From contig JBCBUK010000001.1 in the NCBI GenBank assembly GCA_039818205.1, forward strand, positions 416,001 through 480,000: a stretch of DNA of 64,000 nucleotides, written 5' to 3'. Made by a program: the position numbers and the translations under genes. This DNA is from Verrucomicrobiota bacterium (GTDB lineage: Bacteria; Verrucomicrobiota; Verrucomicrobiia; Opitutales; Cerasicoccaceae). Each line of letters opens with the position of its first letter. The stretch's first letter is position 1. Positions 1-26,843 of this stretch are shown here, in pieces. The notes beneath the pieces were generated by a model that ran no database searches, was not told the DNA's origin, and saw only the letters and a program-made list of their open reading frames with translations.

Positions 1-2
1 AA

Positions 3-3000
3 TTCAGCAGCCGTAATCAAGCTACTATCAAGCAGGGCAATGGTATTGACGTCGTCATCCGGGCCAACAAGGCCAGCAGATTCCAATTCAGCCTGAGTCA
101 GTGCTGTACCGGTAGTCAACTGCGTAACGGTGAATGACTCGACGGTGCCAAACAGTTGCTCGCGGGTGACCGCTCCTAAGTCGAGGTAATCCTGTAGCCT
201 CAATACACTGCTGTCGATTCCAGCTAGCGTGATCTGGTTAAAGGCAGATGCCGCAAGGTATCCGCCTGAAATCAGCGCATCATAGCTTGTCAAACCTTCG
301 TCGACCAAACCAGTAGTCAGCACGCGATCCGACAGCTGCCCAGCGCCGACCAAGTCAGCAAAGCTTGCGAGTGAGGCATTGATCACCGTCAGGGCGTCGA
401 TCTCATCGACCATAAGATCTTCAGCGATCAAGTCACTAAACACGAGCGCAACTTCATCGACCAAGGTCGTTGCCGCAATGGTTTCCGTCGCGAAACCGGC
501 TCCGACCAATTCCCCGTATTCGATCAGATTATTCGCCAAGATTGAGCTGATCGTAACTGGATTATTCAGATCGATTCCAGCATTGGTCAGCGCAGTGTTG
601 GTCGTCAGGCCAGCAGAGACCAAATCAGCTGCGGCAATTCCAGTGTCACCCAAAACACCCGCTGCAACCAAGTCATCGAAAGTGGTCAAACTTGTGCGGA
701 GTAATTCTTCAATCGAAACCGTCCGATCATCGACCAGATCGCTCGCACTCAAGTCGGCATCGGTCACTAGACCTGCGCTGATCAACTGTGTGATCGAAAG
801 TGTATCGGACACAATACCGGCACTAATCAAGGCATCAATCGTTGTGATGCCATCGCCAATCAGCGATTGAGCCGATTGCGTTCGGGCTTGCGCGAACAAC
901 TGATCAGGCGTCAAAGCGCCACTTGCTAGTAGCAGCATCAACTTCTCGCTCGTGAGGTCAACCGAACCAAACAGCGCTGCCGATGGATCCAGCAGACCCT
1001 CGGTCGTGAGGAAGTTCAAATCCAACAGGCCAAGCGCATCAAAGTCTTCTAAGCTGAATCGGTGTAGATCGAGGGTAAAGTCGATTGGCAGAACAATCTC
1101 TTGAGTCACCGGATTGTAGCCGACTTGCTCACCTTCCAAGAGAACACCTGAGGCGTTGATCTCGCTCGCTAATGCTTGCAAAGTGCCCGCTGCCTCAAAA
1201 TCAATCTGCGAGAGGACGAGCAACTCAAAGGCGAATCCAAAGTCGAGCACCTCGCCGAGGCTTTTTTCCAGATAAGGAACGCGCTTGTTGAATAGCTCGG
1301 TTTCGTTGACCGTGGCCAACCACTCATCCTTGATCGCGTTTAGCTGGGTCTCAAAGTCACCAACACGAAGCTGGGCAAAGTCACGCAGGTTATCGAAATT
1401 CTCGAGATTTAGCGGTCCGCTTGTCGACGGAAGCAAGTCGCCACTATAGCGGATGCGAGCATCCTGGCCGAGGGTAACATCCTGACCGGCCAACTCTGCG
1501 AAGACCGGTAGGTTGATGTCGAAGGCACCAGTTGAATTCGTATCGATTGTGTCCGAAGCCAGCACGAGGGTCGTGCTGCCATTGAGGCTCAAGCTAGCTG
1601 AGCCAAGATCGCCAGGCGTACCAATCGAAACCTCTAGATCGCCAATCAGGCTATCGAACTCGAGGCCACTCGCGAAAGCGGTTATCAAGATTTCGTTGCG
1701 GAAGCTCAGCCCCTCGGTTCCAGAGAAGCCATCGAGATCGGCAACAAACGTCAAGTGGGCGTTGACCGCTCCTGAGAGTTCCGCCAGGGCGTCGCGCACC
1801 AAGTCACTGATCAGATCAGCATCCGCACCAGTTGCACCCAGATCAAATTGGTCCAGCTCGCCTAAAGCCAGTGGAATATCAAGCTCCACCTTCAGTTGAC
1901 GGGTAGCACCGTCGTAGGAAGCGACCGTTGCTGGTACGGCTGTTTGCAGCGCCGAAACGAAATCCTGGACCGTGTCAATTGTATCGAAATCAATCAGCGA
2001 AAGGACGTTTGTTTTGAAGGCGTCATCGAAACCAAAGATGTCTCCAATCGAAGCGCCCAGCATTGGTATATGAGCGCTGAGAAAATCATCTTGCTGCAAC
2101 GTTTCACCCCACTGCCCGACCGTCTGGAAAAGCTCATTTAGGTCCGCGACCGCTAGTTCTGCAAAGTAAGCAAACTCCTGGAAGTTTTCGGCATTGAACG
2201 AAACCGCCGATCCCAGTTGGCCATCGAATACATCGCCATTCAAACGGATCCGTGGCTGGTTTGCCGTTAAGTCATGAATAGCAGTACCGGCGAGTTCAGC
2301 GTATATCGGCAGGTTGATGTCCAGCGAGCTATCTGCCGAGACACCATAAACACCCTCGGCCAAAGTCAGGCTTCCGTTAACGTCTAGATCAAAGGAGCCC
2401 AATTGAGCGCTGGATTGCCCGAGATTCACCGCCAGATCTCCAACGCGGGCAGGCAGCTCGATATCGCTGCGATCGACTTCAACGGTGAAGTCAAACTTGT
2501 CGACCGTGAGGCTTCCGATTGGCATATTGTCTGCCCATCCAACGGCGATCGTGAAATCCAGATCAGCGGTAACGTCCAGATCCAGGCTCGCGGTCTCCTC
2601 AGCAGTTAGGCCAAGCGCCAACGCTTCATCACCAAGAACGAGCGCCGCGCTGCGCGAGTAAGTGACCTCATCGTCGATGCCAAAGGTAAAGCCAGTGATC
2701 TTGCCGTCAGTCCGCTGGAAAGTCACCTTGAGCGGGGCTGCCCCCAGGAGAGCACCTCCAAAAAGCTGGCTGAACCAGTTGGCTTCGAGGTAGCTAAGCA
2801 AACCTCCGATGCTTGGCTCTTCATCCTCACTGAATGGGATTGGATCGTCCGCCGGGAACGGCTGGTTTGGATTGAGCGAGCGGAAAAGGTAATGGTCGAT
2901 GTAGTCACCCAATTGCGTGAAGACAGTCACGTCCGTCAAATCACCCAAGGTCGCATTGGTGCCTGGAATCGCCTGAGTGAGGATCTCCTGAACGGCGGCG

Positions 3001-6000
3001 GTAAAGCTCTGTTTGAATCCGATAAGGTCCGCCGATAATCCTTGCAGCGCCCGAGAAAGCTGATCGATAACCGCCTCACGCTCAAATGCACTCGTGGCAA
3101 TCGCAACGGTCATATCGAAGCTACCTAAGCGGGTGCGCACTTCAGCGAACGGTGAGGAACCCGTCGAAACGTAGCCACCATCGGTGATAAACTCCGAGCG
3201 GCTACGACCAATATCGGCAACTAAGTCGGTGGTGACCGCCGAGAAATCGAGAATACCGCCACTGTCGTCCTTCAAGCGGTCATCGCCAAAGTTGTTTCCA
3301 AAATAAAACGTATCGATACCCGTACCACCGTCGAGCGAGTCGTCTCCAGTGCCACCAAAAATCGCATCCCAGCCAGCACCTGCTTCAATGCGGTCGGCAC
3401 CCGAGCCACCGATCAATACGTCGCCACCGGAGCCGCCAAAAATATCGTCGTCACCCGCTGCGCCTTCAATGCGGATGCCACCAACCGAACGGGAACCGTC
3501 GAGTTCGTCGTCACCAACGCCACCGCGCAAGATGCTACCCGAGCGCGTTCCAGCGATCAAAACATCATCACCAACGCCGCCGTCGAACTCGACAGCCACA
3601 CCACTCAGGCCAGATGCATCAAAGGTATCATCACCTTCGCCGCCATCGGCAACCACCTTATTTACGTTGAAGTAGGTGGTGGTGTATTCGCCATACTGCA
3701 CGGTCACGGTACCGCCCGAGCCCGAAAGCGTGTATGCTTCGCCACCGTCCTCGGTATCAATGTATAGGCGCATCCCCGCGCGAGATCCTGTGTGCAGATA
3801 GAGGGTTCCATCGGCTTCACGATGAGCCAATACAGGCTCGACATCCGGCGCTTCAAAACTCCAATTAAAGAGGTCGAACTCGGCGAGAGTAAGTTCCCAA
3901 TCCTGCTCAACTACGAGCAAATCAACATAGGCGAAGAGAAAAATTCGGGCGCGTAGCTCAGCGGAAAGGTCAACCAAGTTCAACAGACCGCCGAGGTCCT
4001 CCAAGTCGAACACACCATTGTCTTCCGGCACGTTGCCGTCGATATCTGGCGGAGTGTAATTGAAAAGAGTCGCGACTTCCGAACCACGGATCTTTCCGTC
4101 GTCGTTAATGTCGTTCAGGTCGATCTCGCCTCGGAAAATAATCTCACCGGCGGCACCAGCACCGGCGATCCCGACACCTACTCCACCCTTCAGTCCAATG
4201 TTTGCATCGATGATGAACTCAGGTTGATCCTCAGTTCCATCCAAACCGAAGTCCGAGAGGAAGAAACCGTCCAACAACCACGCATAGTTGTTGTTTTCCA
4301 GTGCCTTGCGTGCACCAAAAGTATCGTAACCAAAGGCGAGGTCTGCTGTTGCTTTGAATCCGCCAAATGCGGCAATTTCAATCGGAACGGGTCCCGCCGC
4401 AAAGCGGCCAATGATCTTGTCGAAGCTGAATTCAACTTCGAGCAAGGGCATCTCATAGGTAAAGAGCGTTGCATCCTCACCCTGAAGCAGCTTTGCCCAG
4501 TTGCCGATGTCCGTAATGTATTCCAGGAACTGGAAACCCCGGCGTTCGGCAGTCGCTTCGCCACCACCGAGACTCTCTTCTTCGATCTGAACAAGCCCTT
4601 CCGACAACGTAGAGCTGCCTACGGTGCTGAACTTGCTGGTCCACTGGACATCGCCCGTGGCCAAACCAGTGATATCACCGAGTAAGATGACACCCGTTGG
4701 CTTACCGGATCCATCGAGCTGGAAGAGCTGATTGATTCGATCCGGCAGGGTCAGCATGTTCTGAGCGGCATAGACAAACGACCAATCAATCTGGTCACGT
4801 CCCTCCAGATTATTTACGAAATTGATGATCCCCAGGATGTTCGCATCATCCTCTTCAAAACCGATATCAACCAGTTCTGGAATTGGGTTGAGAAGCGCGT
4901 CAATGAAGCCGCGGAATGGCTCCAAGTTTTTCGCGATCTCAATGACGGTTGGCTGGAGGAAGTCCGTTACCAGGCTGCCCGCATCAACACCAAGGTTAGT
5001 GATGCGCAGATTCGGGGCGGACAAGCCGGTGTCGTCGTCATACGACATATCGAAGCGCAACTCACCGACGAGCTTCGGAATAAAGTTTGCCTCGGGAACG
5101 GAAAGCTGAAGACCAAGATCAACATTGGCCGCAACGTTGTAGTCGAGCTCGATGACATCCGAGACCTCACGCGCCGAAATAATGCTATCGAGAGTCAGAC
5201 GGTTGCGCTCATTTGTGCCGCTCTTCAGGTCGACGTTCAATGTTCCAAAGAGGCCGCTTTGCCCTGGATTCAAATCGCTAACGGCGAGTTCCAAGAAGCC
5301 CAGGCTACCAGAACCAGAGAATGGCGTGATGGCACTTGGATTCGTCGGAGACCCATCGAGGTAAACGGCAACATCGACACGAAGCTCAGGATCTCCGGTC
5401 GGGTCTCCGGAATTAGCCGCGTCTGTCGGGTCATTAAGCGTGAGGAAGAATCCGTCTTGGACACTGAGTCCAAATCCGAAGTCCAGTTCCCAGTCCAACT
5501 CAACACTGACGCCACCATCGATATCGAGACCGATGCCAGGCAAGTCGAAATCGATTGGGATATCAACACCGGTATTCAGAACCGTGCCACCGAGTTGGAA
5601 ATCGAACTCCAACGCCTCGGCATCTAGTGGTGGCAATTCGTCTTCGACCCACGCTTCCGTTGAGCCGTCGTCCAGGCGCCAACGCAGCGCCACATCACCT
5701 TCGTCGGCAATATTGTTTCCATTGCGATCGCGTAACACACCCAAGCGCGTTCCGAGTACGGTTACGAGAGCATCGCGAATGAACTCAGCAGGTTGCGTCT
5801 CGTCGAGTGTTTGCTTTAGCTCAGCCACGAAACCGCGGCGGATATCCAAGATAAAATCCGAAAGGCTGTAGAGGCGCTCACCCATTAGCGGGATATTTTG
5901 AGCCAGGCCACCGCGGAGAACATCCTCAACCGCGCCCAGAGCAAGATCAACGCCGTCGACAATGTAGACCGGGTCGTTAAGGAGCGCAAGGATTGAGAAA

Positions 6001-9000
6001 TCGCCTCCGAAGGCTTCAAACGTGCCCACGACATTACCGAAATCGAAGACCACTGCAGGCGGCTCGTTCTCTGGCAATGGCTCCTTGCTGGCCAGCTGCT
6101 GCAGCAGTGTCATCAGGGCTTGATCACCGTAGAACGGATTCGTCTGGATAACGATCGGGTCGAGCTCAAGCGAGGTCTCCCCAATCGTCATAAGCAATGG
6201 GAGCTCAATGTGAACGCTACCCAACAGTTCCCATATGATATTGTCCGAAATGCTCTCGCTGACGCGATACTTGCCATCGTCACCCGGGGTTCCCGCACCT
6301 GTCAGGAAGATCGACAATTCCGCAAAGTCGTCGTCAGTAATCGAGGAGCCATCGCGATCAATGATAATCTGGCCATCTGCGACTGCCAAATTCAGTGGGC
6401 CAACCTTAAAGCCCAAATCCAACCCGGTGCCGATTACGCGAGTGCCCAGAGTCAACCGAGTGCCCTCGCCTGTCGCAGCACTGTAATCGTATAAGAAAAC
6501 GTCCGGACCACCGGGTGAGGTCAACGACTTCAAGTCGATACCGAGATTCAAGATGGCCTCAATCTTTCCCCACAGTTGCAGGTCGGCCGACGCACCAACA
6601 CCAACAAGATCGGTCAGTTGCTCAATATTGTCCAGGTAATCAAGATTGTCCGCACCGGAGATATCTTTGATCGCCGAGAGATCGAGGTTGAAAGTCACCA
6701 GCGAGGAAACCATCCGTGACCAATCGACATCCACCTTTAGGACGTCATTATCGATGCTCAGCTCGAAGTCGTCATCCGCAAGACCCAGGGCGTCCTCGAT
6801 GATTGTTTCAAAGCCTTGGATCAAACCACCTTCTTGGTCAGCTGCCGCCTGAATTTGCTGGGCTAGCTCGCTCGTAAAGTCGAATACTTCTTCCAGGGTG
6901 ACATCGAGTCCCGGAAGACGAGCATCGTAAAGTGGCGTGTCGCTCAATGAATCCTCAACAAAGCTCAGCCCAACCTGAAGAGCCGCAACTACGTTGTCGA
7001 AGGTGATGTTTTTAACATCGAGCAAACTGCCGAGATCCGGGAGGACGGTGGTTGCCGTAGAAAGATCTGAAAGATCAGAAATCGAGATTCCGATCGTCTC
7101 GCTTTCGTTTACGAATAGGTCGCCGAAGTCGGAATCAACTTTGATTCCCTGCAGCTGAGCGGAAGCCGCGCCGCTATAGTCAAAGTAGAACGCATCACGG
7201 AAGGTATTACGGACCAATTCGCGAAGCCCAAAGGACTGGTCGTTGGTCGTGTTAAGATCACCGTCGAGATCTAAAGCCGCGACCACACTCGCATCCAAGT
7301 GAACCCCGGAGCCATCAACTCCTTCGCCGATAGTCAGACCCAGGCTACCGAGTCGAGCCTTGGCGACAAAGTCCTCGACGTCCAACTTCGTATCCGCACT
7401 CAGGCGGGCACCCTGAACAAGGATTTCGAAATCGCTGTTATTGTCCGCGCCATCAAGGTCAAAGACCAAGTCAACGGCGGCATTGACATCGATACCCAAG
7501 GACGCAATGGCCTCAGTAGTTAGCTCAAACAGATCTGCATCGGACAGGTCGAGTCCAAGATCCAAGGGCAGATTATCAAACGGAGTCAGCGATGCCGAGT
7601 AGCGGATCGGCAGGATAATTTGATTCTCAACGGCATCGTAGCTGACCTGTGCACCATCTGGGAGCACCAGCTTGTTCGCAACCTCGACAAAAAATTCTTG
7701 CAGATTGGTAACGTTGCTGAGATCGAGCTTCGAGAGATACCCTTCGTTAAAGGATTCTGCAAAGTCGACGACGTCACCGAGGTTAACCCCGGCAAATGGG
7801 ATCTCGACGTCAAAAATGTCGTAGCCAACAACGTCGCTCAGCCAGAGCGAGATGTCGTCCAGCGCGACAAAGAGATCGGAAACTTCGAAGCGAGAAAAGT
7901 CTGTTAGGCGGTCGAAACCGTTTGCTTGGACGTCGACACCGCTCTCACCTGCTCCCGGGAAAAGCTTGCCCGCAGCAGTTACTCGAAGGTCCGTTCCCTC
8001 GGACAAATCGACACTTCCAAGCGAAGCGGAGATCGGCAGGTTTATATCAACGTTGCCGTCAAAAATTGGTGAGAACGCGCCGCCGGTGTAAGAGAAGCCA
8101 CCGGTCAGATCAATCGCCGCCGTGCCTTTCTCGGCTCCTTGGCCGACGCCGACCGCGAGTGGTCCTACAGCCGCATCAAAGGTAAGGTCTTGGGAATCGG
8201 CGCCTGCGCCAACAGAGAATTCATTGAGGTTGAAACTCGTTGCACCCGTGTTGAAGTCCACCCCGAAGTCGAAATCGACCGTGAAATCCAAATCGAAATC
8301 AACTGTTCCATCCAGGGTCAGGCCAAGGTTCTCCGCCTCCTCACCCAAGGCGAGACGAGCAGTCCGGGTCGCGGTGTTATTAGCGCGGAAAGCAAACGCA
8401 ACGCCTGAGGTTGTGACCGACCAGGTGAGCGCAAAATCGTCCTCTGAAATGAAGCTCAGCCACTCGTTCGAGAGAAAGTCGATGATCTCGGGAAGCGTTG
8501 GGAGCGCATCGCCAGTCTGCCAGGTCGTTGGATCAAATTGTTCGAGGTAACGTTCGAGGGCATCCCCCACTTCGAGGTAGCGGTCAAGACCACTAAAAAG
8601 CTGATTGAGCGTCAGATTTGTCCCCAGGATCTCGGTGTCGAGAATGTCCTGGAAATTAAAGTCTGCGAACACCTGCTGAAGCTCATCAGCAAGATCCAAA
8701 AGGTATTGGAACGCGATGTCGGTGAGATCTGAGATCAGCGCTGGGATCAAATTCTCAAATCCGGAGGTCGAAATCTCCGCGTCAACGAAATCAAACAAGT
8801 CCGCGTCGATGATCGAAAGGCGAGCACTCTCTCCGCTCACGCTCAAGGGGAGAATCAACTCAATCGATCCATTGGCGGTTGGGTTGACGAGGTAATCAGC
8901 CGCACGCAGCTCAGTGAGCGTCAAGCGGCCATCGCCTGCGGAATCTGCAAGACCAATGTTTAGATCAAGCGCAAGATCGAGACTCGCGCTCTCCGTATCG

Positions 9001-10736: not shown

Positions 10737-11138
10737 AGGAAAATCAAAAATATAGCAGAGAGAGGCGGAATGATTAGATGATAATCAGCCCCGAAAGAAG
10801 GGGCTATTGAGTCGCGATCATCAACCACTTTTATGTTACGAAAGTGAAAATAAAATCCTCTAATACGTCACATAAATAAACAAAAACGACACAAACGTCT
10901 CAATAGCTCAACCTGCTATCCTTCAATATTTTACGTAACTCAATTCCCCACTCACCTGCGATTTCGACCGATGAATGGTTCGAATCAAAACCAACCATGC
11001 ATCGCGGGGATTTTCAAAGCGCCGAACTCCGGGCGGTCAGCAATTTTCCATTGCTAGCGCAATGAAAAACTATTGATTCAGGGCATTTACATTAAAACCT
11101 GGGTGAAACAGGCTATTTTCAAGTACCCTTAGGTAATT

Positions 11139-11939
11139 CTATCGTTCCGCCTGTACCGTAGATATCTTAGTCGGTTCGAGGGATTTCGTTCGGTCGAGCA
11201 CAACCCGGAAGCCGTAGACGGGTAAGCGAATATAGGAGATATTCCCAACACGATTATGGTGCATCATGTCCGATGGCTCATGCATTCTCCATGAGCCTCC
11301 TTTAAGCACGCGCATATCCGGAGCGCCCTCGTAATAGTCCGAGCACCATTCCCAGACGTTGCCGCCCATATCGTAGAACCCAAGTTCATTCGGCGAGAAA
11401 CTACCGACCGGTGCGGTTTGTTCAAAACCATCAATTTGCAATTGCTGGCCATAGTTCCCCGACCCTTCAGGCGGTGGCCATTCTTTTCCCCATGGGAAGG
11501 CAATCTCGCGGTTAAAACTAGTCCGCGATTTCTTGGATTCATCGACCACAACACCGGCGGCAGCCAACCATTCGGCTTCGGTCGGGAGTCGGTAAAAATC
11601 ACCCTCACCAATGAGCTCTGCCTCCTGCTCTGAGCGCGTCAACCATCGACAGAACAGATTGGCATCTTCCCAGGAGACATAGACCGCGGGCTCATTATCA
11701 GTTTGTTCAAAATAAGGCTTCGACCAACGCAAACCAGTGGCTTCAACAAAGCCCTGGTAGTCGCTAACACGAGTTTCCCAGATGCACATAAGCACGCCCG
11801 GCTCAAGCTCGACAAAGGCCATCTGTAATGAGTTTGACCAATCAGCTACCGCTCGTTCCTCTGCGTCAGCCGCAGTCGTCGAAGCAATCGAAGCAACGAT
11901 TGCGGCTAGGCAAAAACGGTAAAGACGACGGATCATCAT
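11139..11939 (-). CDS. Secreted FGE-sulfatase/SUMF1-fold protein
   Basis: Signal peptide; motifs PAVYVSWEDA, YRLPTEAEW, FPWG, PVGSFSPNELGFYDMGGNVWEW, RVLKGGSW, YGFRVV. Confidence 0.88.
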   Translation of the reverse strand: MMIRRLYRFCLAAIVASIASTTAADAEERAVADWSNSLQMAFVELEPGVLMCIWETRVSDYQGFVEATGLRWSKPYFEQTDNEPAVYVSWEDANLFCRWLTRSEQEAELIGEGDFYRLPTEAEWLAAAGVVVDESKKSRTSFNREIAFPWGKEWPPPEGSGNYGQQLQIDGFEQTAPVGSFSPNELGFYDMGGNVWEWCSDYYEGAPDMRVLKGGSWRMHEPSDMMHHNRVGNISYIRLPVYGFRVVLDRTKSLEPTKISTVQAER

Positions 11940-12110
11940 TTACGTTATTGAGAGCTTTACCCGAGGAATTCAATCGCAAAAGGAATTCCTTGCCGACCGA
12001 AACCGGTACGTTACATTTCCAAATTCTCTGTGTCGGTCATTGACCTGCCCGGCAATGATATCAGTTTACTGTTCCGGTTTACCAATCGCCCTTTCGCCTC
12101 CTGCTGATAG

Positions 12111-13559
12111 ATGAAATTAACATCATCCAACGTGCCGCAACTAAGCGGGCAATCCGCCGACTTCTCAATCGAGGCGGTTTCTGACCAGTTGGCCAAGAAG
12201 GAATCGCGTCAGGCCTTGAACGCAGTTGATCTTTGTCTGATGCTCAACGATGAGGACCGATTCCTCAAGGCAGCGATGCTCCTCTGCAACGAAATCAATG
12301 CGAGATTTCGGTGCGTTCAAGTGGGTTTGGGTATTTTCCGCGGCGGCCATGCGAAACTGGCAGCGTTGAGCAATACACAACGCTTTGACCGCAAAAGCGA
12401 ATTGGTTCGGCGGATGCAATACGCGATGGAGGAAGCAGCCGACCAAGACGAAGAAACAATTTATCCTCGCCCCCGCGAAGACAGCTTCATCTACCGCGAA
12501 CTTGAGAAATACGTTACGGTGGCCGGGATGGAAGCGGGAGCGACCCTGCCCCTTCGCCACAATGGAGAAATTTTCGGCGTTATCCTATTAGAACGTCGCG
12601 ACGAACGCTTTACGCCCGACGAACTCTTTGCCTTGCGCTTAATCGTCGATGTAAATGCCCGGCTTGTTTATGACCTCGAGCGCCGAGATCAATGGATTGG
12701 ACGCCGCTGGGCACGCGGCGCCCGTAAGACTGCCGCGTGGGTTTTTGGATTTGAGCATACCTGGACTAAGATTGGTATTCTGTGCGGCATCGGAGTCATC
12801 GCTTTCCTTATTTTCTATCAGTGGTTTTACCGTGTTGAAGCGGACTTCAGTCTTAAGGCCCAAACCGTTCTGAATATACCAGCGCCATTCGATGGCTTCA
12901 TTGAAGGCGTCGCGGTGGACCTTGGAGACACCGTCAGCCCAAACGCGCCATTGCTTCACCTTGATCGCCAGCAACTTCTTCTCGAGGAGGCCGAAATCGA
13001 AAGCCGTATTAGCCGATACGTTGCCGAAGCCGAAGCTGCCCATAGCCAAGGCCAGTTTAGTGAAGCACAGATTGCCCGCATGCAAGTTCGAGAGGAAGAA
13101 GCGGAACTCGCGATCATACAACACCGTTTGTCTAAGGCCGACTTGATCGCGCCATTCGAAGGGTTCGTGATGGAAGGTGATCTACGCGAGCGCATCGGTG
13201 CTCCGGTTAATCGAGGCGAGCCGCTATACAAGCTAGCACGCATCGACAGCATGTCGGTGCGTATCGAGATTAAAGAAGAAGACATTCATGAGGTATCCGT
13301 TGGTTCAACCGGCGAGCTCGCGTTCGCTAGCCGACCAGAAGAGAAGTTCGCTTTTGTAATTGAAAGTATCGAACCGGCAGCGCAGACCCGACAAGAGGGC
13401 TCAATTTTCGTTGCCCGTGCCAGCTTCGAGGGTGAACCAGTTGAATGGTGGCGCCCGGGAATGCGCGGTGTGGCCAAAATTGACGTCGGAGACCGCAGTC
13501 TCATTTGGGTGCTCACGCACCGGTTGGTCGACTTCGTTCGCATGAAACTCTGGATTTAA
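12111..13559 (+). CDS. GAF-domain HlyD-family membrane fusion protein
   Basis: N-terminal GAF-like region (TLPLRHNGEIFGVILLER), one TM helix, lipoyl-like half motifs APFDGFI and APFEGFV flanking a coiled coil, C-terminal WRPGMRGVAKI. Confidence 0.85.
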   Translation: MKLTSSNVPQLSGQSADFSIEAVSDQLAKKESRQALNAVDLCLMLNDEDRFLKAAMLLCNEINARFRCVQVGLGIFRGGHAKLAALSNTQRFDRKSELVRRMQYAMEEAADQDEETIYPRPREDSFIYRELEKYVTVAGMEAGATLPLRHNGEIFGVILLERRDERFTPDELFALRLIVDVNARLVYDLERRDQWIGRRWARGARKTAAWVFGFEHTWTKIGILCGIGVIAFLIFYQWFYRVEADFSLKAQTVLNIPAPFDGFIEGVAVDLGDTVSPNAPLLHLDRQQLLLEEAEIESRISRYVAEAEAAHSQGQFSEAQIARMQVREEEAELAIIQHRLSKADLIAPFEGFVMEGDLRERIGAPVNRGEPLYKLARIDSMSVRIEIKEEDIHEVSVGSTGELAFASRPEEKFAFVIESIEPAAQTRQEGSIFVARASFEGEPVEWWRPGMRGVAKIDVGDRSLIWVLTHRLVDFVRMKLWI

Positions 13560-13565
13560 TCGAGC

Positions 13566-15722
13566 ATGCCGGAAAAGAAGACCTTCAGCGATTCGTGGTA
13601 CCGCATTGCAGACAAGCATGCGACGCTGCGGCATCAGGTCCAAACCGCAAAGCAGTATTTTCGCGGTGATCGCTGGTATGTCTTGCACGATCCGTTTCGT
13701 AACGAATTCTTCCGAGTCACCGAGCAAGCCTACCTCTTTATCGCCCGATTGACCTTAGACAAGACGATCGACGATGTCTGGCGCGAGTGCATGGAACGCC
13801 AGCCGGAACTCGCACCGGGTCAAGAAGAAGTCATCGATGTGCTGGCCCAACTCAACCAGGCCAATCTCATTCAATCAGATCTGCCGGCTAACAGCACCCA
13901 CCTGTTTGAACAGGCACGCAAGAATACCAAGAAAAAGATTCGTTCCCAGCTGATCAACTTCCTGTTCTTACGAATACCGGTATTTAACCCCGACGCCCTG
14001 CTGAATTTCCTCAAACCGTTGGGCAAACTTGCCATCAATCCTATCGGAGCCCTGGTTTGGCTCGGAGTTGTTGGTTGGGCGCTTAACCTCGTATTTTCGA
14101 ACTTTGAATCTGCAACCAATCAGGCATCTGGGTTTCTTTCCCCGCAGAACATACCCTGGATCCTAGTCGCCACGGTTTTGCTGAAAGCCATACACGAATT
14201 AGCCCATGGCATCGCCTGTAAACACTATGGTGGAAGCGTTCCGCAGTTTGGAATCATGCTGATGATCCTTATGCCGCTCCCGTATGTTGATGCGACTTCC
14301 AGTTGGTCGTTTCCCAACAAATGGAAGCGCATCGTTGTAAGTTCAGCCGGCATGATCGTCGAGATATTTGTCGCGGCAATAGCGACCATCATCTGGAGCG
14401 AAACTGGAGCCGGTATGGTCAACGCGGTCGCCTACAACGTTATGTTGATCGCATCGATCACAACGATTCTCTTCAACCTCAACCCGTTGTTGAAGTTTGA
14501 TGGGTACTACATTTTTTCTGACCTTTTCGGCCTGCCAAATTTGCAACAGCGCTCGATTGGCACCTTGCGCTTCCTGATGGAGTATTACTTGTTTGGTTAC
14601 AAAGATGCGATCTGCCCAGCGCGAGATTTCAATGAAGGCGTATGGCTCTCAATCTATGGCGTCGCCTCGGGCATTTACCGGGTCTTCCTCATGCTATCGA
14701 TTTCATTTTTGGTAGCCGAGCGTTTCTTCGAGATCGGTTTGCTATTGGGGATTTTTACCCTGCTGATGAACATCGTGCTGCCTCTGTTGAAGTTTATCCG
14801 ATATGTGTTCACGAATTCACAGCTATCCCGCAATCGGGCCCGCGCGATCATGGTTACGGGTCTAGTCTTTGGCTCGCTCGCATTTGCACTGACCCTGATT
14901 CCGGTTGAGGAACATTTTGTTGAACCCGGCATCGTTCGCAGTGAAGACCGCGCCGTTATTGGAGCGACTGATAGCGGTTATCTGACGGAAGTCATGCAAC
15001 CGACCGGGGTCTATGTCGAAGCGGGCACACCCCTCATGCAACTTCGCGACCCAGAACTTGCCCATGAGATAACGCAAGCAGAACTCGCAATTGAACGCAC
15101 CGAGACCACCCTCATGCAAGCGCAAGAGGACGAGTTCAGCTCTTTACGTCCTCTGCGTAGGCAGGTTCAGCTCGAACAGCAACGCCTCGATCGTCTACTT
15201 GAGCGCAAGGCCGAACAAACCATTCGCGCACCCATCAGCGGGCTGTGGACCTCACCGGACATCAACGCCATGGACGGTCTTTGGATTGGTCGCGGAGATG
15301 CCGTGGGGCACATTGTCAACCCGCAGGATTTGCGCTTCATCGCGGTTATCTCCCAAAGTGAAGCCGCGAATCTGTTTAACCGAAAAATCGAACGCGCAGA
15401 GATTCGCCTTTGGGGCCGTGCGGGCCAACCGCTCATGGCGACAGTGCAGCGTATCATCGAGGCCGAGCAAGCAGCATTGCCATCTCCCGCTCTCGGTTGG
15501 CAAGGAGGTGGTGAGGTTCGCGTCAAGCCCGACGACCCGGAAGGCCGTGAGGTCGTTGATCCCTTTTTCCGCCTCATTGCCGTCATTGAAAATCCCGAAG
15601 AGATAGGAATCGTTGCCAATGAGCAAACGGGCAAAATTCGACTGACAGTGGGCAAGCGCCCGCTCCTCTTTCAATGGGTGCACGACATCCGCCAACTCTT
15701 GCAGGAGCGTCTGAAGCTATGA
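13566..15722 (+). CDS. Site-2 (M50) metalloprotease fused to an N-terminal PqqD-like domain and a C-terminal HlyD/MFP domain
   Basis: HELAH zinc motif in a TM segment, NLNPLLKFDGYY (NPDG-type) motif, several TM helices, then a lipoyl/coiled-coil/IRAPISG MFP region. Confidence 0.88.
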   Translation: MPEKKTFSDSWYRIADKHATLRHQVQTAKQYFRGDRWYVLHDPFRNEFFRVTEQAYLFIARLTLDKTIDDVWRECMERQPELAPGQEEVIDVLAQLNQANLIQSDLPANSTHLFEQARKNTKKKIRSQLINFLFLRIPVFNPDALLNFLKPLGKLAINPIGALVWLGVVGWALNLVFSNFESATNQASGFLSPQNIPWILVATVLLKAIHELAHGIACKHYGGSVPQFGIMLMILMPLPYVDATSSWSFPNKWKRIVVSSAGMIVEIFVAAIATIIWSETGAGMVNAVAYNVMLIASITTILFNLNPLLKFDGYYIFSDLFGLPNLQQRSIGTLRFLMEYYLFGYKDAICPARDFNEGVWLSIYGVASGIYRVFLMLSISFLVAERFFEIGLLLGIFTLLMNIVLPLLKFIRYVFTNSQLSRNRARAIMVTGLVFGSLAFALTLIPVEEHFVEPGIVRSEDRAVIGATDSGYLTEVMQPTGVYVEAGTPLMQLRDPELAHEITQAELAIERTETTLMQAQEDEFSSLRPLRRQVQLEQQRLDRLLERKAEQTIRAPISGLWTSPDINAMDGLWIGRGDAVGHIVNPQDLRFIAVISQSEAANLFNRKIERAEIRLWGRAGQPLMATVQRIIEAEQAALPSPALGWQGGGEVRVKPDDPEGREVVDPFFRLIAVIENPEEIGIVANEQTGKIRLTVGKRPLLFQWVHDIRQLLQERLKL

Positions 15723-17704
15723 CGCCGACCCGGACATTTCATCATCGACACATCGATCTACCCGCCAAGGTTCCAAGCGGGCTGGACCGGTTGCTACACG
15801 ATAGCTACGGGCGAATCAAGCGGCGGGCTACGATCGCTGGTCAGTTGAAGCGAGAAAGCCAGTGGATTCACCGCCGGGCTGACAAGCTTCGCGAACTATC
15901 CTCAGCCCAGTTTCGTGAAGCCTTGGAGGACATGCAGATTCGCTTTCGCCGAGTTCGCCAATGCCCTTCTGCAGCAAGCGAGCGAGAAGCCCTGGCATTG
16001 GTCGCTGTCGCCACCAGCCGAACTTTGGGTTTGGACCCCTACCCCGTCCAGCTAATGGCCGCGCTTAGTCTAATTCGTGGCTACTTGGCCGAGATGTCGA
16101 CCGGTGAAGGCAAAACGCTTTCCAGTGCGTTGGCAGTAAGCGTCCTCGGTTGGCGCGGCAAACCCGTTCATTTATTCACTGCAAATGATTACCTTGCGCA
16201 ACGCGATTGTGAGGAGATGGTGCCACTCTATCAGTTTTGCGGCCTAACAGCGGGTTATGTCGTCGCGGAAATGGAGCCCGATGACAGACGCCCACATTAC
16301 GCTAGCGACATTACCTGCACGACGAGTAAGGAATTGCTCGCAGATTTCCTCCGTGATCGTTTGAAGACTGACTCAATCAACGACACCCGCCGTCTTCTTG
16401 TTCGCGAACTACTGGGCGGCGGTGGCCCGTCCGACCCGCCGGTGACCCGGGGGATTCATACAGCAGTGATCGATGAAGCCGACAGCGTCATGATTGACGA
16501 CGCAGCAACGCCGCTAATCATCAGTCAAAAGTATCGTAATGAAGCCTTCAATGAGTGCTGTGAAATCGCGCATCAGATTGCCAATAATCTCGTTGGAGAC
16601 GACCACTACAGAGTCAACTTTCAGAAGCGGGAAATTCAAATCACCCCCGCCGGCTATGACCTGATCGAAACCCAAGCCGAACAGTTTCCACGCATGTGGC
16701 AAACCTTCGAACGAAGCAACGAACTCGTAAAGCTATCGCTAACGGCCCGAGAGTTTTTTCGTCGCGACAAAGACTACATTATCCAAGACGAAAAGGTCGT
16801 CATTATTGACCCCTCTACCGGACGTCTCAAGAAAGACAGCACCTGGCGCGGTGGCGTCCACCAAGCAATTGAGATCAAAGAAAACTTGCCCATCAGCGAT
16901 CCCGCTCAAACGCTCGCAAGCCTTAGCTTTCAGAGATTCTTTCGACTATTCAAACATCTCTGCGCAACGACGGGAACCGTGGGTACCACCCGCGGAGAAT
17001 TCTGGCATTTCTACAAACTGCCGACGGTTCGAATTCCGACCCACCGACCATGCGTTCGGCGCCAAATGCCCACCCGGTATTTTGGATCGAACGAACGCAA
17101 GTTCGCCGCCATTGTTGACGAAGTAAAAGCATTTCGCTCAGCCGGTCGGCCAATCCTAATCGGAACGTTTTCCGTTGAAGCTAGTGAAGCACTTGCTGGT
17201 CGTCTAGAGGAAGAAGGCTTGCCGTTCGAGCTGATCAACGCAGCCGAACACGATCGCGAAGCCGCAATCATAAAGGACGCTGGCCACCCGGGAAGAATCA
17301 CCTTGGCCACCAACATGGCGGGACGCGGGACCGATATCAAACTCGCTAAGGGCGTCGCGGATTCTGGCGGCCTCCACGTAATTTGTGCTGAAAGAATGGA
17401 AAGCGCACGAGTAGACCGCCAACTCCACGGACGCGCTGGTCGCCAAGGCGACCCGGGGAGCACTCAAACATTTGTCTCGATGGAAGACGACTTGTTGCGC
17501 CAGCAATGCGGATCCAAGATGTGTGGAACCGTTGGGCAGGCGCTCGACAGCTCGGCTCCCGGCGCAAAACTGATTGCGGCACGCCTGACCAATCGAGCTC
17601 AACGTGAAGGCGAAAAGAAAAAACGCAAACAGCGAGAAAGCGTCATGAAGATGGACCATTGGCTCGAAGAATCACTCGCCTTCTCCGGAAGCAGCGGTCT
17701 CTAA
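15719..17704 (+). CDS. Accessory short SecA-like ATPase (SecA_DEAD family, 661 aa)
   Basis: EMSTGEGKT, TANDYLAQRD, DFLRDRL, IDEADS, HQAIEIKE, TNMAGRGTDIKL, RVDRQLHGRAGRQGDPG. Start placed at ATG 15719, which overlaps the upstream TGA (ATGA). Confidence 0.92.
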   Translation: MTPTRTFHHRHIDLPAKVPSGLDRLLHDSYGRIKRRATIAGQLKRESQWIHRRADKLRELSSAQFREALEDMQIRFRRVRQCPSAASEREALALVAVATSRTLGLDPYPVQLMAALSLIRGYLAEMSTGEGKTLSSALAVSVLGWRGKPVHLFTANDYLAQRDCEEMVPLYQFCGLTAGYVVAEMEPDDRRPHYASDITCTTSKELLADFLRDRLKTDSINDTRRLLVRELLGGGGPSDPPVTRGIHTAVIDEADSVMIDDAATPLIISQKYRNEAFNECCEIAHQIANNLVGDDHYRVNFQKREIQITPAGYDLIETQAEQFPRMWQTFERSNELVKLSLTAREFFRRDKDYIIQDEKVVIIDPSTGRLKKDSTWRGGVHQAIEIKENLPISDPAQTLASLSFQRFFRLFKHLCATTGTVGTTRGEFWHFYKLPTVRIPTHRPCVRRQMPTRYFGSNERKFAAIVDEVKAFRSAGRPILIGTFSVEASEALAGRLEEEGLPFELINAAEHDREAAIIKDAGHPGRITLATNMAGRGTDIKLAKGVADSGGLHVICAERMESARVDRQLHGRAGRQGDPGSTQTFVSMEDDLLRQQCGSKMCGTVGQALDSSAPGAKLIAARLTNRAQREGEKKKRKQRESVMKMDHWLEESLAFSGSSGL

Positions 17705-17737
17705 CGATTTCTCGCCAGAACGGACCACTTCGTTAGT

Positions 17738-19591
17738 CTACAGCGCATCCACCACCTGAACGCCGATTTCTTCGAGCAGTGTTCCCGACGCTTCAAAGAG
17801 ATCGACCCGCGACTTGGCTAGATCGTTCAAGACCGTGAGTTCACGCAGGCGCGCGTTCGACAAATCGGTATGAAAGTTCAAGGTGTCGTAGATTGATTTC
17901 TCGCCCGATTCGACCAAGATTTGCTCTTGGTCAATCTCTTGTTCAAAAAGCTCACGAAGCTCCTGCGCATTGGCGAGCCGTCGTTCCTGAAGCTCAATCT
18001 GCTCAAGCGCTGATGTGACCTCGTGCACGATCGTGTTCTCGATACTTGACCGCTCTAACATCAGCCGTCGACGGGCGCTGAGAACTTCGCGGACTCGATT
18101 GTCGGCTTCGACGTTTCCCCATGGACGGGAGAATACAACCCCCACCGAAACTTCCGGAAAGTCTGCCCGTACGGTTTCACCATAACTGCTAAAGGGATTG
18201 TCGGAGATACCGCGGAGGCCAGCCGACGCCACAATATCCAACTGAGGCAATTGCTCATCGCGCGCAGCGGTCAACTCATAGCGACTCCGCTCGATGGCCA
18301 AAGCGGCGCGATGGTAGTCCGGACGCCTCTGCAGTGCGCGGCCAATCAGGTATGACGCATTAAAATCCGGGGTCTCACCAACCACCCAACCCTCGGGCAA
18401 CGCATCCTGCATCGCCTCCCGTTCTGCGCGTCCGGTTGTGAGCAAGAACAACAACGAGCGAGCATCCTCCAAACGTTGCTCGGCTTGAAACAAGTCGTCA
18501 CGGCTCTCCGTAATTCTTGCCTGAATCGCAGCAATATCGCGAATTGATGCTTGTCCGCGTTCTACGTCCCGGCGTTTTTTCGACAGCAATGCCTGGAACA
18601 CGTCGATCTCAACTGCCTGCAATCGCATCTCCTGATAAGCCAAGAGAAAATCGTAGTATATGCGCATTGTTCGAGCGATGATGATGAGTACCTCACCGCG
18701 AAATTCCGTATCGGCAATACGCTTGTTCCGCTGAGCAATACGCAGCGGAGCCAGGTTGGCGTCCGTTCCAAATCCCCGCATCAAGGGCACCGTTAAATCG
18801 AGCCCAAAGAAGCTCTCAAACTCTGGATCAAAAACCGAGCGCTCGTCCTCGCGGGTCAAATCAGTGGTCGAGGCAACAAGCGTGCTTCTTAGGCCATAGG
18901 TCACGCCATAGGGCATGCGTTGCTCAAACTTCAACTCAACGGAACCGACGGATGCGTCAAATGGATTTGAGTTTCCGTTAAGTCCAACAAGGTCTTCAAC
19001 TTGACCGCCCGATGAGATAAACTCTTGAGTGTTCTGAGGCACGCGACTCTCGCGCAGCGTTCCGCTTGTCTCAAAGCGCGGATCAAAGGCACCGAAAGTT
19101 TGGCGCATACGGTAATCCTCAATCTCGATGACACTTCGCTGGATCTGAATATCAAAATTCTCTTCCAAAGCCATCTGAAGTGCCCATTGCAATGGCAACT
19201 TTGGGTAATGAACAGCAGGTCTTTCCGGGTTCGGTAACAGGTCTCGCAGATAAGCTGGACGCAAGTAGCGACGCTCAAACTGCTCCGCATGCAGATTGTC
19301 CAAAAACAACCAACCGCGAGATCCTTCGGACCATTCAGAAAGATATCCAGCCGGGTCCGCTTCTGGAGTAATCCGGGGCGTCATACCCGCCTGCTCTGGT
19401 TCCTCATCGAACAGCTCCGGCTCGACAAAAGGCAACGAATCAGCCGGATTCATTTCAACCGATTCCTCGGCCGGTATCCGGTCATCCCCCCGTCGAAAGT
19501 CGTAGTAACGCTTCTCCGTTGGCGTATCAACCTGCGCAGTCGCGACCGACAACCAAGTTAAAAAGAGGCATCCAATGAATTTGACCCACAT
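17738..19591 (-). CDS. TolC-family outer membrane efflux protein with long N-terminal extension
   Basis: Signal peptide; two OEP-like repeats (ALQMALEENFDIQ, LTVPLMRGFG, ALQRRPDY, LPQLDI), C-terminal LFEASGTLLE. Confidence 0.85.
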   Translation of the reverse strand: MWVKFIGCLFLTWLSVATAQVDTPTEKRYYDFRRGDDRIPAEESVEMNPADSLPFVEPELFDEEPEQAGMTPRITPEADPAGYLSEWSEGSRGWLFLDNLHAEQFERRYLRPAYLRDLLPNPERPAVHYPKLPLQWALQMALEENFDIQIQRSVIEIEDYRMRQTFGAFDPRFETSGTLRESRVPQNTQEFISSGGQVEDLVGLNGNSNPFDASVGSVELKFEQRMPYGVTYGLRSTLVASTTDLTREDERSVFDPEFESFFGLDLTVPLMRGFGTDANLAPLRIAQRNKRIADTEFRGEVLIIIARTMRIYYDFLLAYQEMRLQAVEIDVFQALLSKKRRDVERGQASIRDIAAIQARITESRDDLFQAEQRLEDARSLLFLLTTGRAEREAMQDALPEGWVVGETPDFNASYLIGRALQRRPDYHRAALAIERSRYELTAARDEQLPQLDIVASAGLRGISDNPFSSYGETVRADFPEVSVGVVFSRPWGNVEADNRVREVLSARRRLMLERSSIENTIVHEVTSALEQIELQERRLANAQELRELFEQEIDQEQILVESGEKSIYDTLNFHTDLSNARLRELTVLNDLAKSRVDLFEASGTLLEEIGVQVVDAL

Positions 19592-19620
19592 ACGCGATCG
19601 TTGTTGGGAGCAGGCACAGT

Positions 19621-19660
19621 AGAAAAGTTGAGGGAGAACTCACCGAGAACTCCCCCAACC
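19621..19660 (-). terminator. Probable intrinsic terminator after the 19687-20469 gene
   Basis: Minus strand GTTGGGGGAG...CTCCCTCAAC stem (one G-U pair) followed by TTTTCT. Confidence 0.55.
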
Positions 19661-19686
19661 GATAAAACTGAAGCGGTGTCCAGTGC

Positions 19687-20469
19687 TTACTTGGTTACAC
19701 CAAGACGCTCGGCGAACTCCTTCAATGACTGTGCTTGAGTCGTAATGAAGAACGCTACGGTCAAGATACTGGCGAGGTGCTCGTTCTTGTTGAGTCCTGC
19801 GAAGTCGCCAACTCCGAGCTCACGAACCATGTCGCCGACTTCGGAAGTTACGAACACGCCACCGCCTTGTTGACCAGGCTGGGTCTTCAACTGAACGCTG
19901 CGAAGCTTGATGGTAAGCTTACCGCCAGTAACGTCGTTCTCGCTAACAACGCTGCCCTTGTTCGCCAATGCACGGCGGAGCTGGTAGATGCTCAAGATGT
20001 GCTCTTCTGAAGGAGAAGAGATCGAGTGTTTTTCCTTCAAGTAGCCAATCTTAGAAGGCAGATCCATGCGTGCGAACTCCATGCGCTCGTCTTGCAATGT
20101 CTTTTGGATGTCACCTTGCTGGTTGCCAGCCTTCCAATTGGAAAGAGTCGAAATAGTGCGGCAATCGTCGAGAAACAAAACAAGCACACCGAGAACTTCA
20201 TTCAAAGTCTGCTTGAGCAACCAAGTGTTGTACTCACGCTTGACCGAGGTGTAGTCCATGCGGCTCTTTTGCGAAGGCATTACGCGATTGGCACGAGAGA
20301 AATTCTCATACTCCTGCTCGCTCAGCATACGCTCAGCAGCCAACGAATAATTCATTACATCGTGGACGCGCTGAAGGGCTTCCAAGTAGTTGTTTACAAC
20401 TTCGCCCAGATTGATCTGAGTCGACTTATTTTCTGCTTCAGGCGCTGCAGGGACGGATTCTGATGACAT
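19687..20469 (-). CDS. Hypothetical cytoplasmic protein (about 260 aa), possibly a degenerate HEPN-like fold
   Basis: Long ORF with a helical-looking sequence. Start placed at MSSESVP (ATG 20469); the track extends it to 20511. Confidence 0.75.
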   Translation of the reverse strand: MSSESVPAAPEAENKSTQINLGEVVNNYLEALQRVHDVMNYSLAAERMLSEQEYENFSRANRVMPSQKSRMDYTSVKREYNTWLLKQTLNEVLGVLVLFLDDCRTISTLSNWKAGNQQGDIQKTLQDERMEFARMDLPSKIGYLKEKHSISSPSEEHILSIYQLRRALANKGSVVSENDVTGGKLTIKLRSVQLKTQPGQQGGGVFVTSEVGDMVRELGVGDFAGLNKNEHLASILTVAFFITTQAQSLKEFAERLGVTK

Positions 20470-22519: not shown

Positions 22520-22586
22520 TTAATTTCGAATAAACATTCACGAGAATTGACTATTTTTCAAGTTGTGACTTAAAGTTAAGAAAAAG

Positions 22587-23675: not shown

Positions 23676-23677
23676 CA

Positions 23678-26806: not shown

Positions 26807-26843
26807 CGTATGAGCGGCTCATTGGACATCGTGCGTGGACCGA

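What the first reader, a model, noticed from the sequence alone, without database searches (positions are those of the whole stretch)
1..20469. ABC-less, SecA-associated type I-like export system beside its likely giant LEPR-XLL substrate
Seen: a giant RTX-bearing ORF lies next to two HlyD-type adaptors (one GAF-fused, one M50-fused), a SecA paralog translationally coupled to the M50 gene, TolC, an FGE-fold protein and a hypothetical protein. No HlyB-type ABC transporter is in the locus. Established: canonical type I secretion needs ABC + MFP + TolC and uses a C-terminal signal. From memory, Kamneva, Poudel and Ward (2015) noted bioinformatically that secondary SecA_DEAD genes co-occur with T1SS-related genes; I know of no mechanistic characterisation. 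Inference: this is a distinct pathway in which SecA supplies the motor, the M50-MFP is the inner-membrane component and leader peptidase, and the substrate is targeted by its N-terminal LEPRxLL leader.
Basis: partly seen in the sequence, partly recalled or inferred. Interest (0 to 1): 0.92.

Follow-up and report, generated by a model that had tools for sequence, protein, structure and literature searches.

The report
Leader-guided exporter for giant surface proteins
A 16,254-residue surface-type protein with a short tag at its start lies beside an untested export gene set (outer-membrane channel, adaptors, a tag-reading membrane protease and a cut-down SecA motor) that probably exports it without the usual ABC pump.

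Summary
The locus is real. The giant ORF is 16,254 aa and carries the genome's only LEPR-XLL leader. No type I ABC transporter lies beyond it or reaches the family cut-off in this 99.97%-complete genome. The gene set, the missing ABC, SecA as ATPase and M50 as pore were already proposed by Kamneva et al. 2015; this scan has noted the system on other genomes (17 findings).

Added here:
- The M50-adaptor starts with a PqqD/RRE leader-binding fold.
- Among 301 genomes of the phylum, 25 have this M50 subtype: all 25 have a second SecA match and 24 have leader proteins, against 2 of 231 genomes without the M50-adaptor.
- In a second class, 21 of 23 leader-positive genomes carry it.

Correction: SecA is not universal. 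Two sister clades keep the adaptors, RRE-M50 and their own leader variants without a short SecA. The conserved core is leader + RRE-M50-adaptor + adaptors + TolC; SecA is a one-clade add-on, mostly with very large cargo.

Best reading (0.6): leader-directed, ABC-less export; no step is shown experimentally. This copy lacks the usual third small adaptor. The hypothetical gene is probably unrelated.

The parts
1..10736 (-). 5' part (3,578 of 16,254 aa) of a giant acidic, Gly/Asp-rich surface-type protein with no hydrophobic signal peptide and no transmembrane segment; continues to G000:C1:377972
10554..10616 (-). LEPR-XLL leader motif (residues 41-61) after a basic N-terminus; the only one found in the genome
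   Evidence: NF012209 31.4 bits, over cut-off; own leader profile, 1 match
3309..3644 (-). First small internal RTX (GGxGxD) cluster, residues about 2365-2476
11139..11939 (-). FGE-sulfatase-fold protein; possible lineage-specific accessory, role not shown
   Evidence: PF03781 E 8e-36; close relatives in the same divergent position in 3 of 80 loci, L021, L043, L057
12111..13559 (+). GAF + one transmembrane helix + HlyD-type adaptor; lacks the first about 160 positions of the 618-position family profile
   Evidence: relatives in 76 of 80 loci
13566..15722 (+). RRE(PqqD)-M50 peptidase-HlyD adaptor fusion, 718 aa; the conserved core of the system
13614..13877 (+). PqqD/RRE-fold domain (residues about 17-104), the candidate leader reader
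   Evidence: Pfam PqqD in 65 of 83 aligned members at E<=1, best 1.6e-9; best structural matches include TfuB1 Z 9.2 (rmsd 2.9, 82 aligned), TbiB1 Z 8.7, PqqD Z 8.4; Foldseek top six rows TfuB1/TbiB1, E>=0.008
14193..14207 (+). HExxH zinc motif (HELAH, 210-214); N304 and D312 of the NxxPxxxxDG motif lie downstream
   Evidence: H210, E211, H214, N304, D312 invariant in 120 of 120 homologues
15719..17704 (+). Short SecA paralogue, 661 aa: both ATPase domains and the preprotein-binding domain; ends inside the scaffold helix, so no wing domain and no two-helix finger
   Evidence: (81 residues after RQGDPG against 349 in the housekeeping SecA)
17738..19591 (-). TolC-family outer-membrane channel, convergent with the operon; assignment to the system is likely, not certain
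   Evidence: PF02321; 271 bits to the locus TolC profile, below the members' 406-710, and a paralogue on C5 scores 276
19687..20469 (-). Hypothetical protein, probably a bystander; weak HEPN-like lead only
   Evidence: no Pfam or NCBIfam hit; 0 of 80 loci; atlas score 0.86 to a HEPN cluster

Best explanation
An ABC-less, N-terminal-leader-directed export machine whose cargo is the 16,254-aa protein. Shown (by sequence, models and co-occurrence): the parts, the RRE fold, intact protease and ATPase motifs, and the genomic coupling of leader, RRE-M50-adaptor and short SecA. Inferred: (1) the cytoplasmic RRE binds the FxLExLEPRxLLS leader as it leaves the ribosome, as RiPP RREs bind leader peptides; (2) the membrane helices of the M50 domain, with the adaptor anchors, form the inner-membrane gate and the M50 site cuts the leader; (3) the adaptors bridge to TolC, so the chain crosses both membranes unfolded, N-terminus first, probably during translation; (4) in this clade the short SecA, which cannot work on SecY in the usual way, docks on the gate and feeds the chain using ATP; (5) the GAF domain regulates the gate. 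SecA is a booster acquired in one clade. SecA-less clades would rely on ribosome push, folding outside the cell, or the housekeeping SecA.
For: Leader ORFs begin within 10 kb of the M50 gene in 20 of 80 related loci, many of which are cut short by contig ends. The motif gave 22 matches in the first 200 residues of ORFs (21 true, 1 chance match in a TolC) and 0 in 332,889 residues further in. Phylum sample, 301 genomes: leader profile matched 24 of 25 with this subtype, 4 of 45 with distant subtypes and 2 of 231 without (both weak, E about 0.003). Second class, 300 genomes scored, independent model NF012209: 21 of 46 M50-positive against 2 of 254 negative. Leader genes also lie 150-700 kb from the operon, e.g. 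G116, as expected of a targeting signal. A type I HlyD was found in only 1 of the 25 genomes. RRE fold, also detected in the SecA-less DUF4347 clade (profile match 97.9% against 0.2% for a control region). Leader variant follows the M50 clade in the tree. A second SecA_DEAD match in 25 of 25, with three matches in the three genomes that have two operons; short SecA in 67 of 80 loci.
Against: No step is shown experimentally. The SecA-less clades show that the dedicated motor is dispensable for the architecture, and one of them holds a leader protein of more than 8,031 aa (G088). Within the SecA clade 6 of 21 high-scoring genomes of the second class had no short SecA (draft assemblies). Many M50-positive genomes had no leader match (41 of 45 distant-subtype genomes; 25 of 46), at least partly because the profiles miss other leader variants. 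Two M50-positive planctomycete genomes gave no match to my leader profile. This copy lacks the small third adaptor found in 55 of 80 loci (best in-genome score 116 against 148-375 for members). Related genomes are not independent, and the leader profile was trained partly on this genome. M50 proteases are not known to form protein-conducting pores (own knowledge).
Confidence: 0.6

Rival explanations
1. Retention and release: the machine exports the giant C-terminus first, as type I systems do. The leader stays bound to the RRE at the inner membrane as an anchor, and M50 cleavage under GAF control releases the adhesin, as LapD/LapG do for LapA (recalled).
For: GAF sensor in 76 of 80 loci; TolC and adaptors are type I hardware; some neighbouring giants share an acidic, Trp-containing C-terminal pattern.
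Against: No ABC to read a C-terminal signal; the RTX clusters are far from the C-terminus; SecA-type motors work from an N-terminal signal (own knowledge); 420-460-aa proteins also carry the leader.
Confidence: 0.15
2. Two-step route: the short or the housekeeping SecA passes the chain through SecYEG, M50 acts as a special signal peptidase, and the adaptors with TolC move the chain from the periplasm.
For: The preprotein-binding domain is kept; the SecA-less clades need some motor and always have the housekeeping SecA.
Against: The paralogue ends before the wing domain and two-helix finger (their role on SecY is own knowledge); the giant has no hydrophobic signal segment.
Confidence: 0.12
3. 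A conventional ABC transporter encoded elsewhere powers the export.
For: Four ABC exporters score 307-391 bits to the HlyB model; a MacAB-like operon with a similar TolC lies on C5.
Against: All are far below the 725.55 cut-off and, by my reading of their neighbours, have no adaptor gene beside them; no HlyD over cut-off in this genome and in only 1 of 25 genomes; membrane-type ABC exporters lay in 2 of 80 loci.
Confidence: 0.05
4. The RRE-M50-adaptor matures and exports a small RiPP-like peptide, and the giant is only a neighbour.
For: The best NCBIfam match of the N-terminal half is the daptide intramembrane metalloprotease, 167 bits against a cut-off of 300; an M50 (EpeP) is thought to cleave and export a peptide (PMC10885120).
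Against: No modifying enzyme or other small-peptide gene family recurred among ORFs of 120 aa or more in 80 loci (shorter ORFs were not clustered); genome-wide coupling is with long leader proteins.
Confidence: 0.05

Closest known systems
Secondary SecA_DEAD / type-I-related locus (Kamneva, Poudel, Ward 2015, PMC4452313)
   Same: Short SecA without the wing/scaffold part, M50-HlyD, GAF-HlyD, optional TolC, no ABC. The paper already suggests SecA as ATPase and M50 as pore.
   Different: The main text names no substrate, leader, RRE/PqqD, RTX or adhesin and defines the locus by SecA. Here the third small HlyD protein is absent, and SecA-less sister clades exist. Its supplements were not opened.
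Type I secretion (HlyB-HlyD-TolC; LapEBC)
   Same: HlyD-type adaptors, TolC, a large acidic cargo with some RTX motifs and no Sec signal.
   Different: No ABC transporter; two or three different adaptors; conserved N-terminal motif; RTX motifs far from the C-terminus.
RiPP leader recognition and removal (TfuB1, TbiB1, PqqD; daptide-type RRE-M50, NF041824; EpeP)
   Same: RRE fold joined to an HExxH membrane protease.
   Different: Fused to a periplasmic adaptor; the partner is a 0.4-20 k-residue protein, not a short precursor; no modifying enzymes seen.
Planctomycete cell-surface motif RRLxxExLExRxLLA (PF07595; Studholme 2004, seen only as cited in PMC8567305) and NCBIfam LEPR-XLL (NF012209)
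   Same: Same LExLExRxLL core near the N-terminus of very long proteins; proposed as a novel export signal.
   Different: No export machine is assigned in the passages read. My test in planctomycetes was uninformative.
Accessory SecA2 systems
   Same: A second SecA linked to large surface proteins (own knowledge); the window protein scores 422-483 bits to three of the four SecA2 models, 374 to the fourth, all under cut-off.
   Different: SecA2 proteins are about 760-780 aa by the model lengths and work with SecY or SecY2; this one is 661 aa and sits with adaptors and TolC.

Membership tests
Kamneva 2015 locus | Secondary SecA_DEAD protein lacking most of the wing/scaffold part | tested here: met
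Kamneva 2015 locus | Peptidase_M50 + HlyD protein | tested here: met
Kamneva 2015 locus | GAF + HlyD protein | tested here: met
   N-terminally shortened
Kamneva 2015 locus | Third, stand-alone HlyD/biotin-lipoyl adaptor | tested here: not met
   None in the locus; best genome score 116 bits, from RND/Mac-type adaptors, against 148-375 for members
Kamneva 2015 locus | No ABC transporter in the locus; TolC sometimes adjacent | tested here: met
Type I secretion system | HlyB/PrtD-type ABC transporter | tested here: not met
   Best 391 bits against cut-off 725.55 for the HlyB model; no adaptor beside the four best hits. PrtD and LssB models were not run.
Type I secretion system | Canonical HlyD adaptor (TIGR01843) | tested here: not met
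   Best 57 bits against 208.65
Type I secretion system | TolC channel | tested here: met
Type I secretion system | Uncleaved C-terminal signal, RTX repeats just upstream of it | tested here: inconclusive
   RTX motifs end about 9,400 residues before the C-terminus; a C-terminal signal cannot be excluded from sequence
RRE (PqqD superfamily) | Three-stranded sheet plus three-helix winged fold of about 90 residues | tested here: met
   Model pLDDT 88.9; Z 9.2, 8.7 and 8.4 to TfuB1, TbiB1 and PqqD, with two non-RRE winged-helix proteins tied at Z 9.0 and 8.5; Pfam PqqD 65 of 83
RRE (PqqD superfamily) | Binds a cognate leader peptide | not testable with these tools
   Needs a binding assay
M50 / site-2 protease | HExxH and NxxPxxxxDG in membrane helices | tested here: met
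M50 / site-2 protease | Proteolytic activity on the leader | not testable with these tools
   Needs N-terminal sequencing or an in vitro assay
Accessory SecA2 (SecA2-only or SecA2-SecY2) | C-terminal scaffold, wing and two-helix finger for work on SecY | tested here: not met
   Alignment ends at about residue 603 of the 841-residue solved SecA; SecA2 models all under cut-off

The most novel reading that the evidence does not exclude
A separate, widespread class of protein secretion: a RiPP-type leader reader and membrane protease fused to a periplasmic adaptor replace the ABC transporter, read an N-terminal LExR-LL/FD leader with clade-specific variants, and thread proteins of up to about 20,000 residues through TolC during translation. 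A truncated SecA was added once as a motor for the largest cargo. This would be the missing route for LEPR-XLL, DUF4347-type and probably planctomycete RRLxxExLExRxLLA proteins.
Probability: 0.5. Interest if true: 0.9.

Novelty: new variant of a known kind. Interest (0 to 1): 0.72.

Why it matters
How bacteria export proteins of 1-2 MDa that have no Sec signal and no type I ABC partner is open, and a leader of this kind has been a proposed signal without a machine since 2004. The link found here names the signal, its likely reader, the protease and the motor, so four point mutants and one reporter fusion can test the route. If right, it is a secretion class built from RiPP and efflux parts, present in 70 of 301, 46 of 300 and 38 of 141 genomes in three sampled groups (M50-adaptor matches), and a possible tool for exporting very large proteins.

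Tried and rejected
- Complex prediction of the RRE with the leader peptide: no verdict (scores 0.27, 0.34, 0.12; mark 0.32; controls not folded). It is used neither for nor against.
- RNA runs: no RNA holder was listed.
- Planctomycete test: 38 of 141 genomes had the M50-adaptor, but PF07595 matched 0 of 141 at E<=0.001 and rang in no control, so it is uninformative. My leader profile matched 0 of 5, two of them M50-positive.
- First scan for related loci with the single protein found none; the alignment found 579 relatives in the first 600 stretches, of which 80 were kept.
- DUF3467, a lead from earlier scan notes: not found in this genome.
- 'SecA is needed for giant cargo' as a strict rule: rejected. 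G088 has a leader protein of more than 8,031 aa with no short SecA. A trend remains.
- 'All SecA-less systems lie outside the SecA clade': revised after adding 20 loci; some SecA-less copies nest inside that clade.
- Promoter and terminator scan: below shuffled expectation.
- Whole-protein Foldseek listed only adaptor structures.
- The clade II profile comparison used a faulty alignment (639 columns) and is not relied on.
- Literature searches that showed no paper linking leader, RRE and this machine. The library lacks most subscription papers.
Full report
OBSERVATION. With the whole genome laid, the giant ORF runs from window 10736 on the minus strand to G000:C1:377972 and is 16,254 aa. It is rich in Gly, Leu, Asp and Ala, has two Cys, and has no 19-residue hydrophobic window above 1.9, so no Sec signal or anchor helix is seen. 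A 1,500-residue block recurs at 35% identity. RTX motifs are few and internal: 11 GGxGxD matches, the last at 6841. The LEPR-XLL model matches residues 41-61 over its cut-off and nowhere else in the genome; none of 14 control genomes passes the cut-off. The genome is 99.97% complete and has two SecA_DEAD genes, one housekeeping and this one.

THE ABC QUESTION. The 20 kb beyond the giant's 3' end hold no ABC gene among 16 ORFs of 150 aa or more, by my reading of their translations. Genome-wide, 57 matches to the HlyB model include four full exporters at 307-391 bits against a cut-off of 725.55; I read their neighbours and saw no adaptor gene. The best score to the type I HlyD model is 57 against 208.65. 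Among 25 genomes with this subtype, 1 has a type I HlyD. PrtD and LssB models were not run.

ANATOMY OF THE MACHINE. The 718-aa protein has 2,113 relatives among 8,000 scored candidates. In 120 aligned, H210, E211, H214, N304 and D312 are invariant. Its model (pLDDT 85) shows a small N-terminal domain, a helical membrane domain and an adaptor. The N-terminal domain is a PqqD/RRE fold: Pfam PqqD matched 65 of 83 members at E<=1, best 1.6e-9, though the window's own copy scores only E 0.055. A profile search of solved structures ranked TfuB1 and PqqD first, at weak E-values of 0.065 and 0.24. The domain model matched TfuB1 at Z 9.2 (rmsd 2.9, 82 aligned), TbiB1 at 8.7 and PqqD at 8.4 among 48,161 chains; two non-RRE winged-helix proteins tie at 9.0 and 8.5. 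Foldseek's first six rows are TfuB1 and TbiB1, none below E 0.001. Four weak-to-moderate lines agree. The SecA starts at an ATGA overlap with the M50 stop, keeps GEGKT and DEAD invariant in 118 aligned, and ends 81 residues after RQGDPG; the range was 69-87 in 45 locus copies and 349 in the housekeeping SecA. It aligns to about residue 603 of an 841-residue solved SecA, so the wing domain and two-helix finger are absent (domain borders recalled).

RELATED LOCI. Of 579 confirmed relatives, the best 80 loci were kept. They held the GAF adaptor in 76, short SecA in 67, a small third adaptor in 55, TolC in 49 and a leader ORF start in 20 of 80; many are cut by contig ends. Membrane-type ABC exporters lay in 2 of 80. 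The leader consensus is FxLExLExRxLLS. The window lacks the small adaptor and DUF3467, and its GAF adaptor lacks about 160 N-terminal positions. An FGE-fold gene sits in the same divergent position in L021, L043 and L057; L043 groups with the window in the tree. The hypothetical gene recurs in 0 of 80. None of 15 genomes of the same family has the M50-adaptor, so the locus is patchy.

GENOME-WIDE COUPLING. In 301 genomes of the phylum (at least 90% complete), 70 matched the M50-adaptor profile: 25 at 600 bits or more (this subtype) and 45 only below 400. All 25 had two or more SecA_DEAD matches, and the three with two operons had three; 10 of the other 276 had two (the lengths of most second matches were not listed). 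The leader profile matched 24 of 25, 4 of 45 and 2 of 231. It was built from 26 neighbours of such operons, including this genome's, so it favours this subtype. As an independent check, in 300 scored genomes of the class of G352, NF012209 matched 23, of which 21 were among the 46 M50-positive (G554 not scored; completeness not reported; G464, one M50-positive and leader-negative genome in these tallies, is unpublished). Fisher tests give P from 1e-17 to 1e-28 but overstate, since kin are not independent.

SECA IS AN ADD-ON. Of the 45 distant-subtype genomes, 42 have one SecA match; in the other three the second is full-length or a contig-edge fragment. In the second class, 45 of the 46 positives were tested: 15 of 21 scoring 450 bits or more had a short SecA, and 0 of 24 below. 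The 25 distant-subtype loci of the phylum and 20 of the second class that I fetched showed no short SecA, and most kept the GAF adaptor and small adaptor, often a TolC-like gene, with HExxH intact and leader ORFs beside them. A tree of 102 RRE-M50 regions (about half of the 80 loci, fragments left out; rooted on two distant M50-HlyD proteins) puts all 50 SecA-associated tips in one clade of 64 (support 0.89). That clade pairs with a SecA-less clade at 1.00, and a second SecA-less clade lies outside. The simplest reading is one gain of SecA with some later losses or relocations; it depends on the root. Leader type follows clade: FxLExLEPRxLLS with the SecA clade, LExLExRxLLA with one SecA-less clade, and xLExRxxF[DE][GA]A, ahead of DUF4347 in the two scanned, with the other; L147 is an exception. 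The RRE region is detectable in the DUF4347 clade (97.9% against 0.2% for a control region). Cargo size shows a trend: 20 of the 24 leader-positive genomes of this subtype have a leader frame of 4,500 aa or more, up to 20,466. Leader ORFs measured beside SecA-less operons were about 420-1,160 aa in one clade and about 1,190-4,550 aa in the other, with one above 8,031. These sets were chosen differently, so this is a lead.

MECHANISM. I favour leader-first export (0.6). The RRE reads the leader, the M50 domain gates and cuts, the adaptors join TolC, and the short SecA feeds the chain in this clade. A 1.7-MDa chain would be hard to hold unfolded until a C-terminal signal appears (inference). Rivals are retention and release (0.15), a SecY two-step route (0.12), a remote ABC (0.05) and small-peptide export (0.05). 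Binding, cleavage, direction and the pore are all inferred.

LITERATURE. PMC4452313: read parts 1-5 of 7 (main text and supplement legends), supplements not opened. It describes the locus, notes the missing ABC and proposes SecA as ATPase and M50 as pore; the words PqqD, RTX, adhesin and Studholme do not occur in its main text. Its S2 Table may list giant neighbours. PMC8567305 (passages) reports the RRLxxExLExRxLLA motif as a proposed export signal from Studholme 2004 (not read) and finds a related motif in 8 of the 10 longest proteins of a planctomycete. bioRxiv 10.1101/2023.11.21.568195 (passages) describes wing-less SecA domains inside Omnitrophota giant proteins. PMC10885120 (passages) says the M50 EpeP is thought to cleave and export its peptide. 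PMC10868602, PMC13723633, PMC10952558 and PMC2754498 (passages) do not link leader and machine. Nine searches showed no paper making that link; most subscription papers are not held. This scan's notes hold 17 findings on at least 16 other genomes with the same reading; I had reached the RRE reading before looking, and these notes are not evidence.

VERDICT. A real, variant copy of a gene set described by computer in 2015 and never tested. Interest 0.72.

Noticed in passing
L044, L078, L083, L092 (3' ends of large ORFs upstream of the operon): Four giants end in a similar acidic pattern with F/Y-x-x-W and a hydrophobic last residue. It could be a C-terminal signal or anchor; the window's giant ends differently, in a short amphipathic-looking tail.
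   Followed up: no
G000:C5:2489-7390: A second TolC scoring like the window's (276 bits) heads a MacAB-like operon (adaptor, ABC ATPase, permease), so the two TolCs may be paralogues or interchangeable.
   Followed up: partly
L106, L107, L116, L118 (and L135, L137 flanks not examined): SecA-less clade loci often carry a 420-480-aa leader protein right after the small adaptor plus 1,000-1,160-aa leader proteins nearby; two have a LuxR-like regulator next to the M50 gene.
   Followed up: partly
L141:3752-7564: A leader ORF of 1,270 aa sits inside the operon between the small adaptor and the GAF adaptor.
   Followed up: no
G088 (C29:49923-51428) and G255 (C4:14626-16110): Second full-length SecA genes in genomes with the SecA-less subtype; G088 also has the largest cargo of that subtype (over 8,031 aa). 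Real duplication or binning contamination is not resolved.
   Followed up: partly
window 19687-20469: Hypothetical protein belongs to an unnamed family (atlas scores 0.95-0.96) with a weak HEPN-like lead (0.86).
   Followed up: partly
G000:C7:1888-28878: A second very large ORF (8,996 aa) without a LEPR-XLL match; 38 ORFs of 1,500 aa or more in the genome.
   Followed up: no
window 21800-29957: TetR-like regulator with an RND adaptor and pump, then a ligase-associated metallophosphoesterase and DEXH helicase pair, by my reading of the translations; not part of the system.
   Followed up: no
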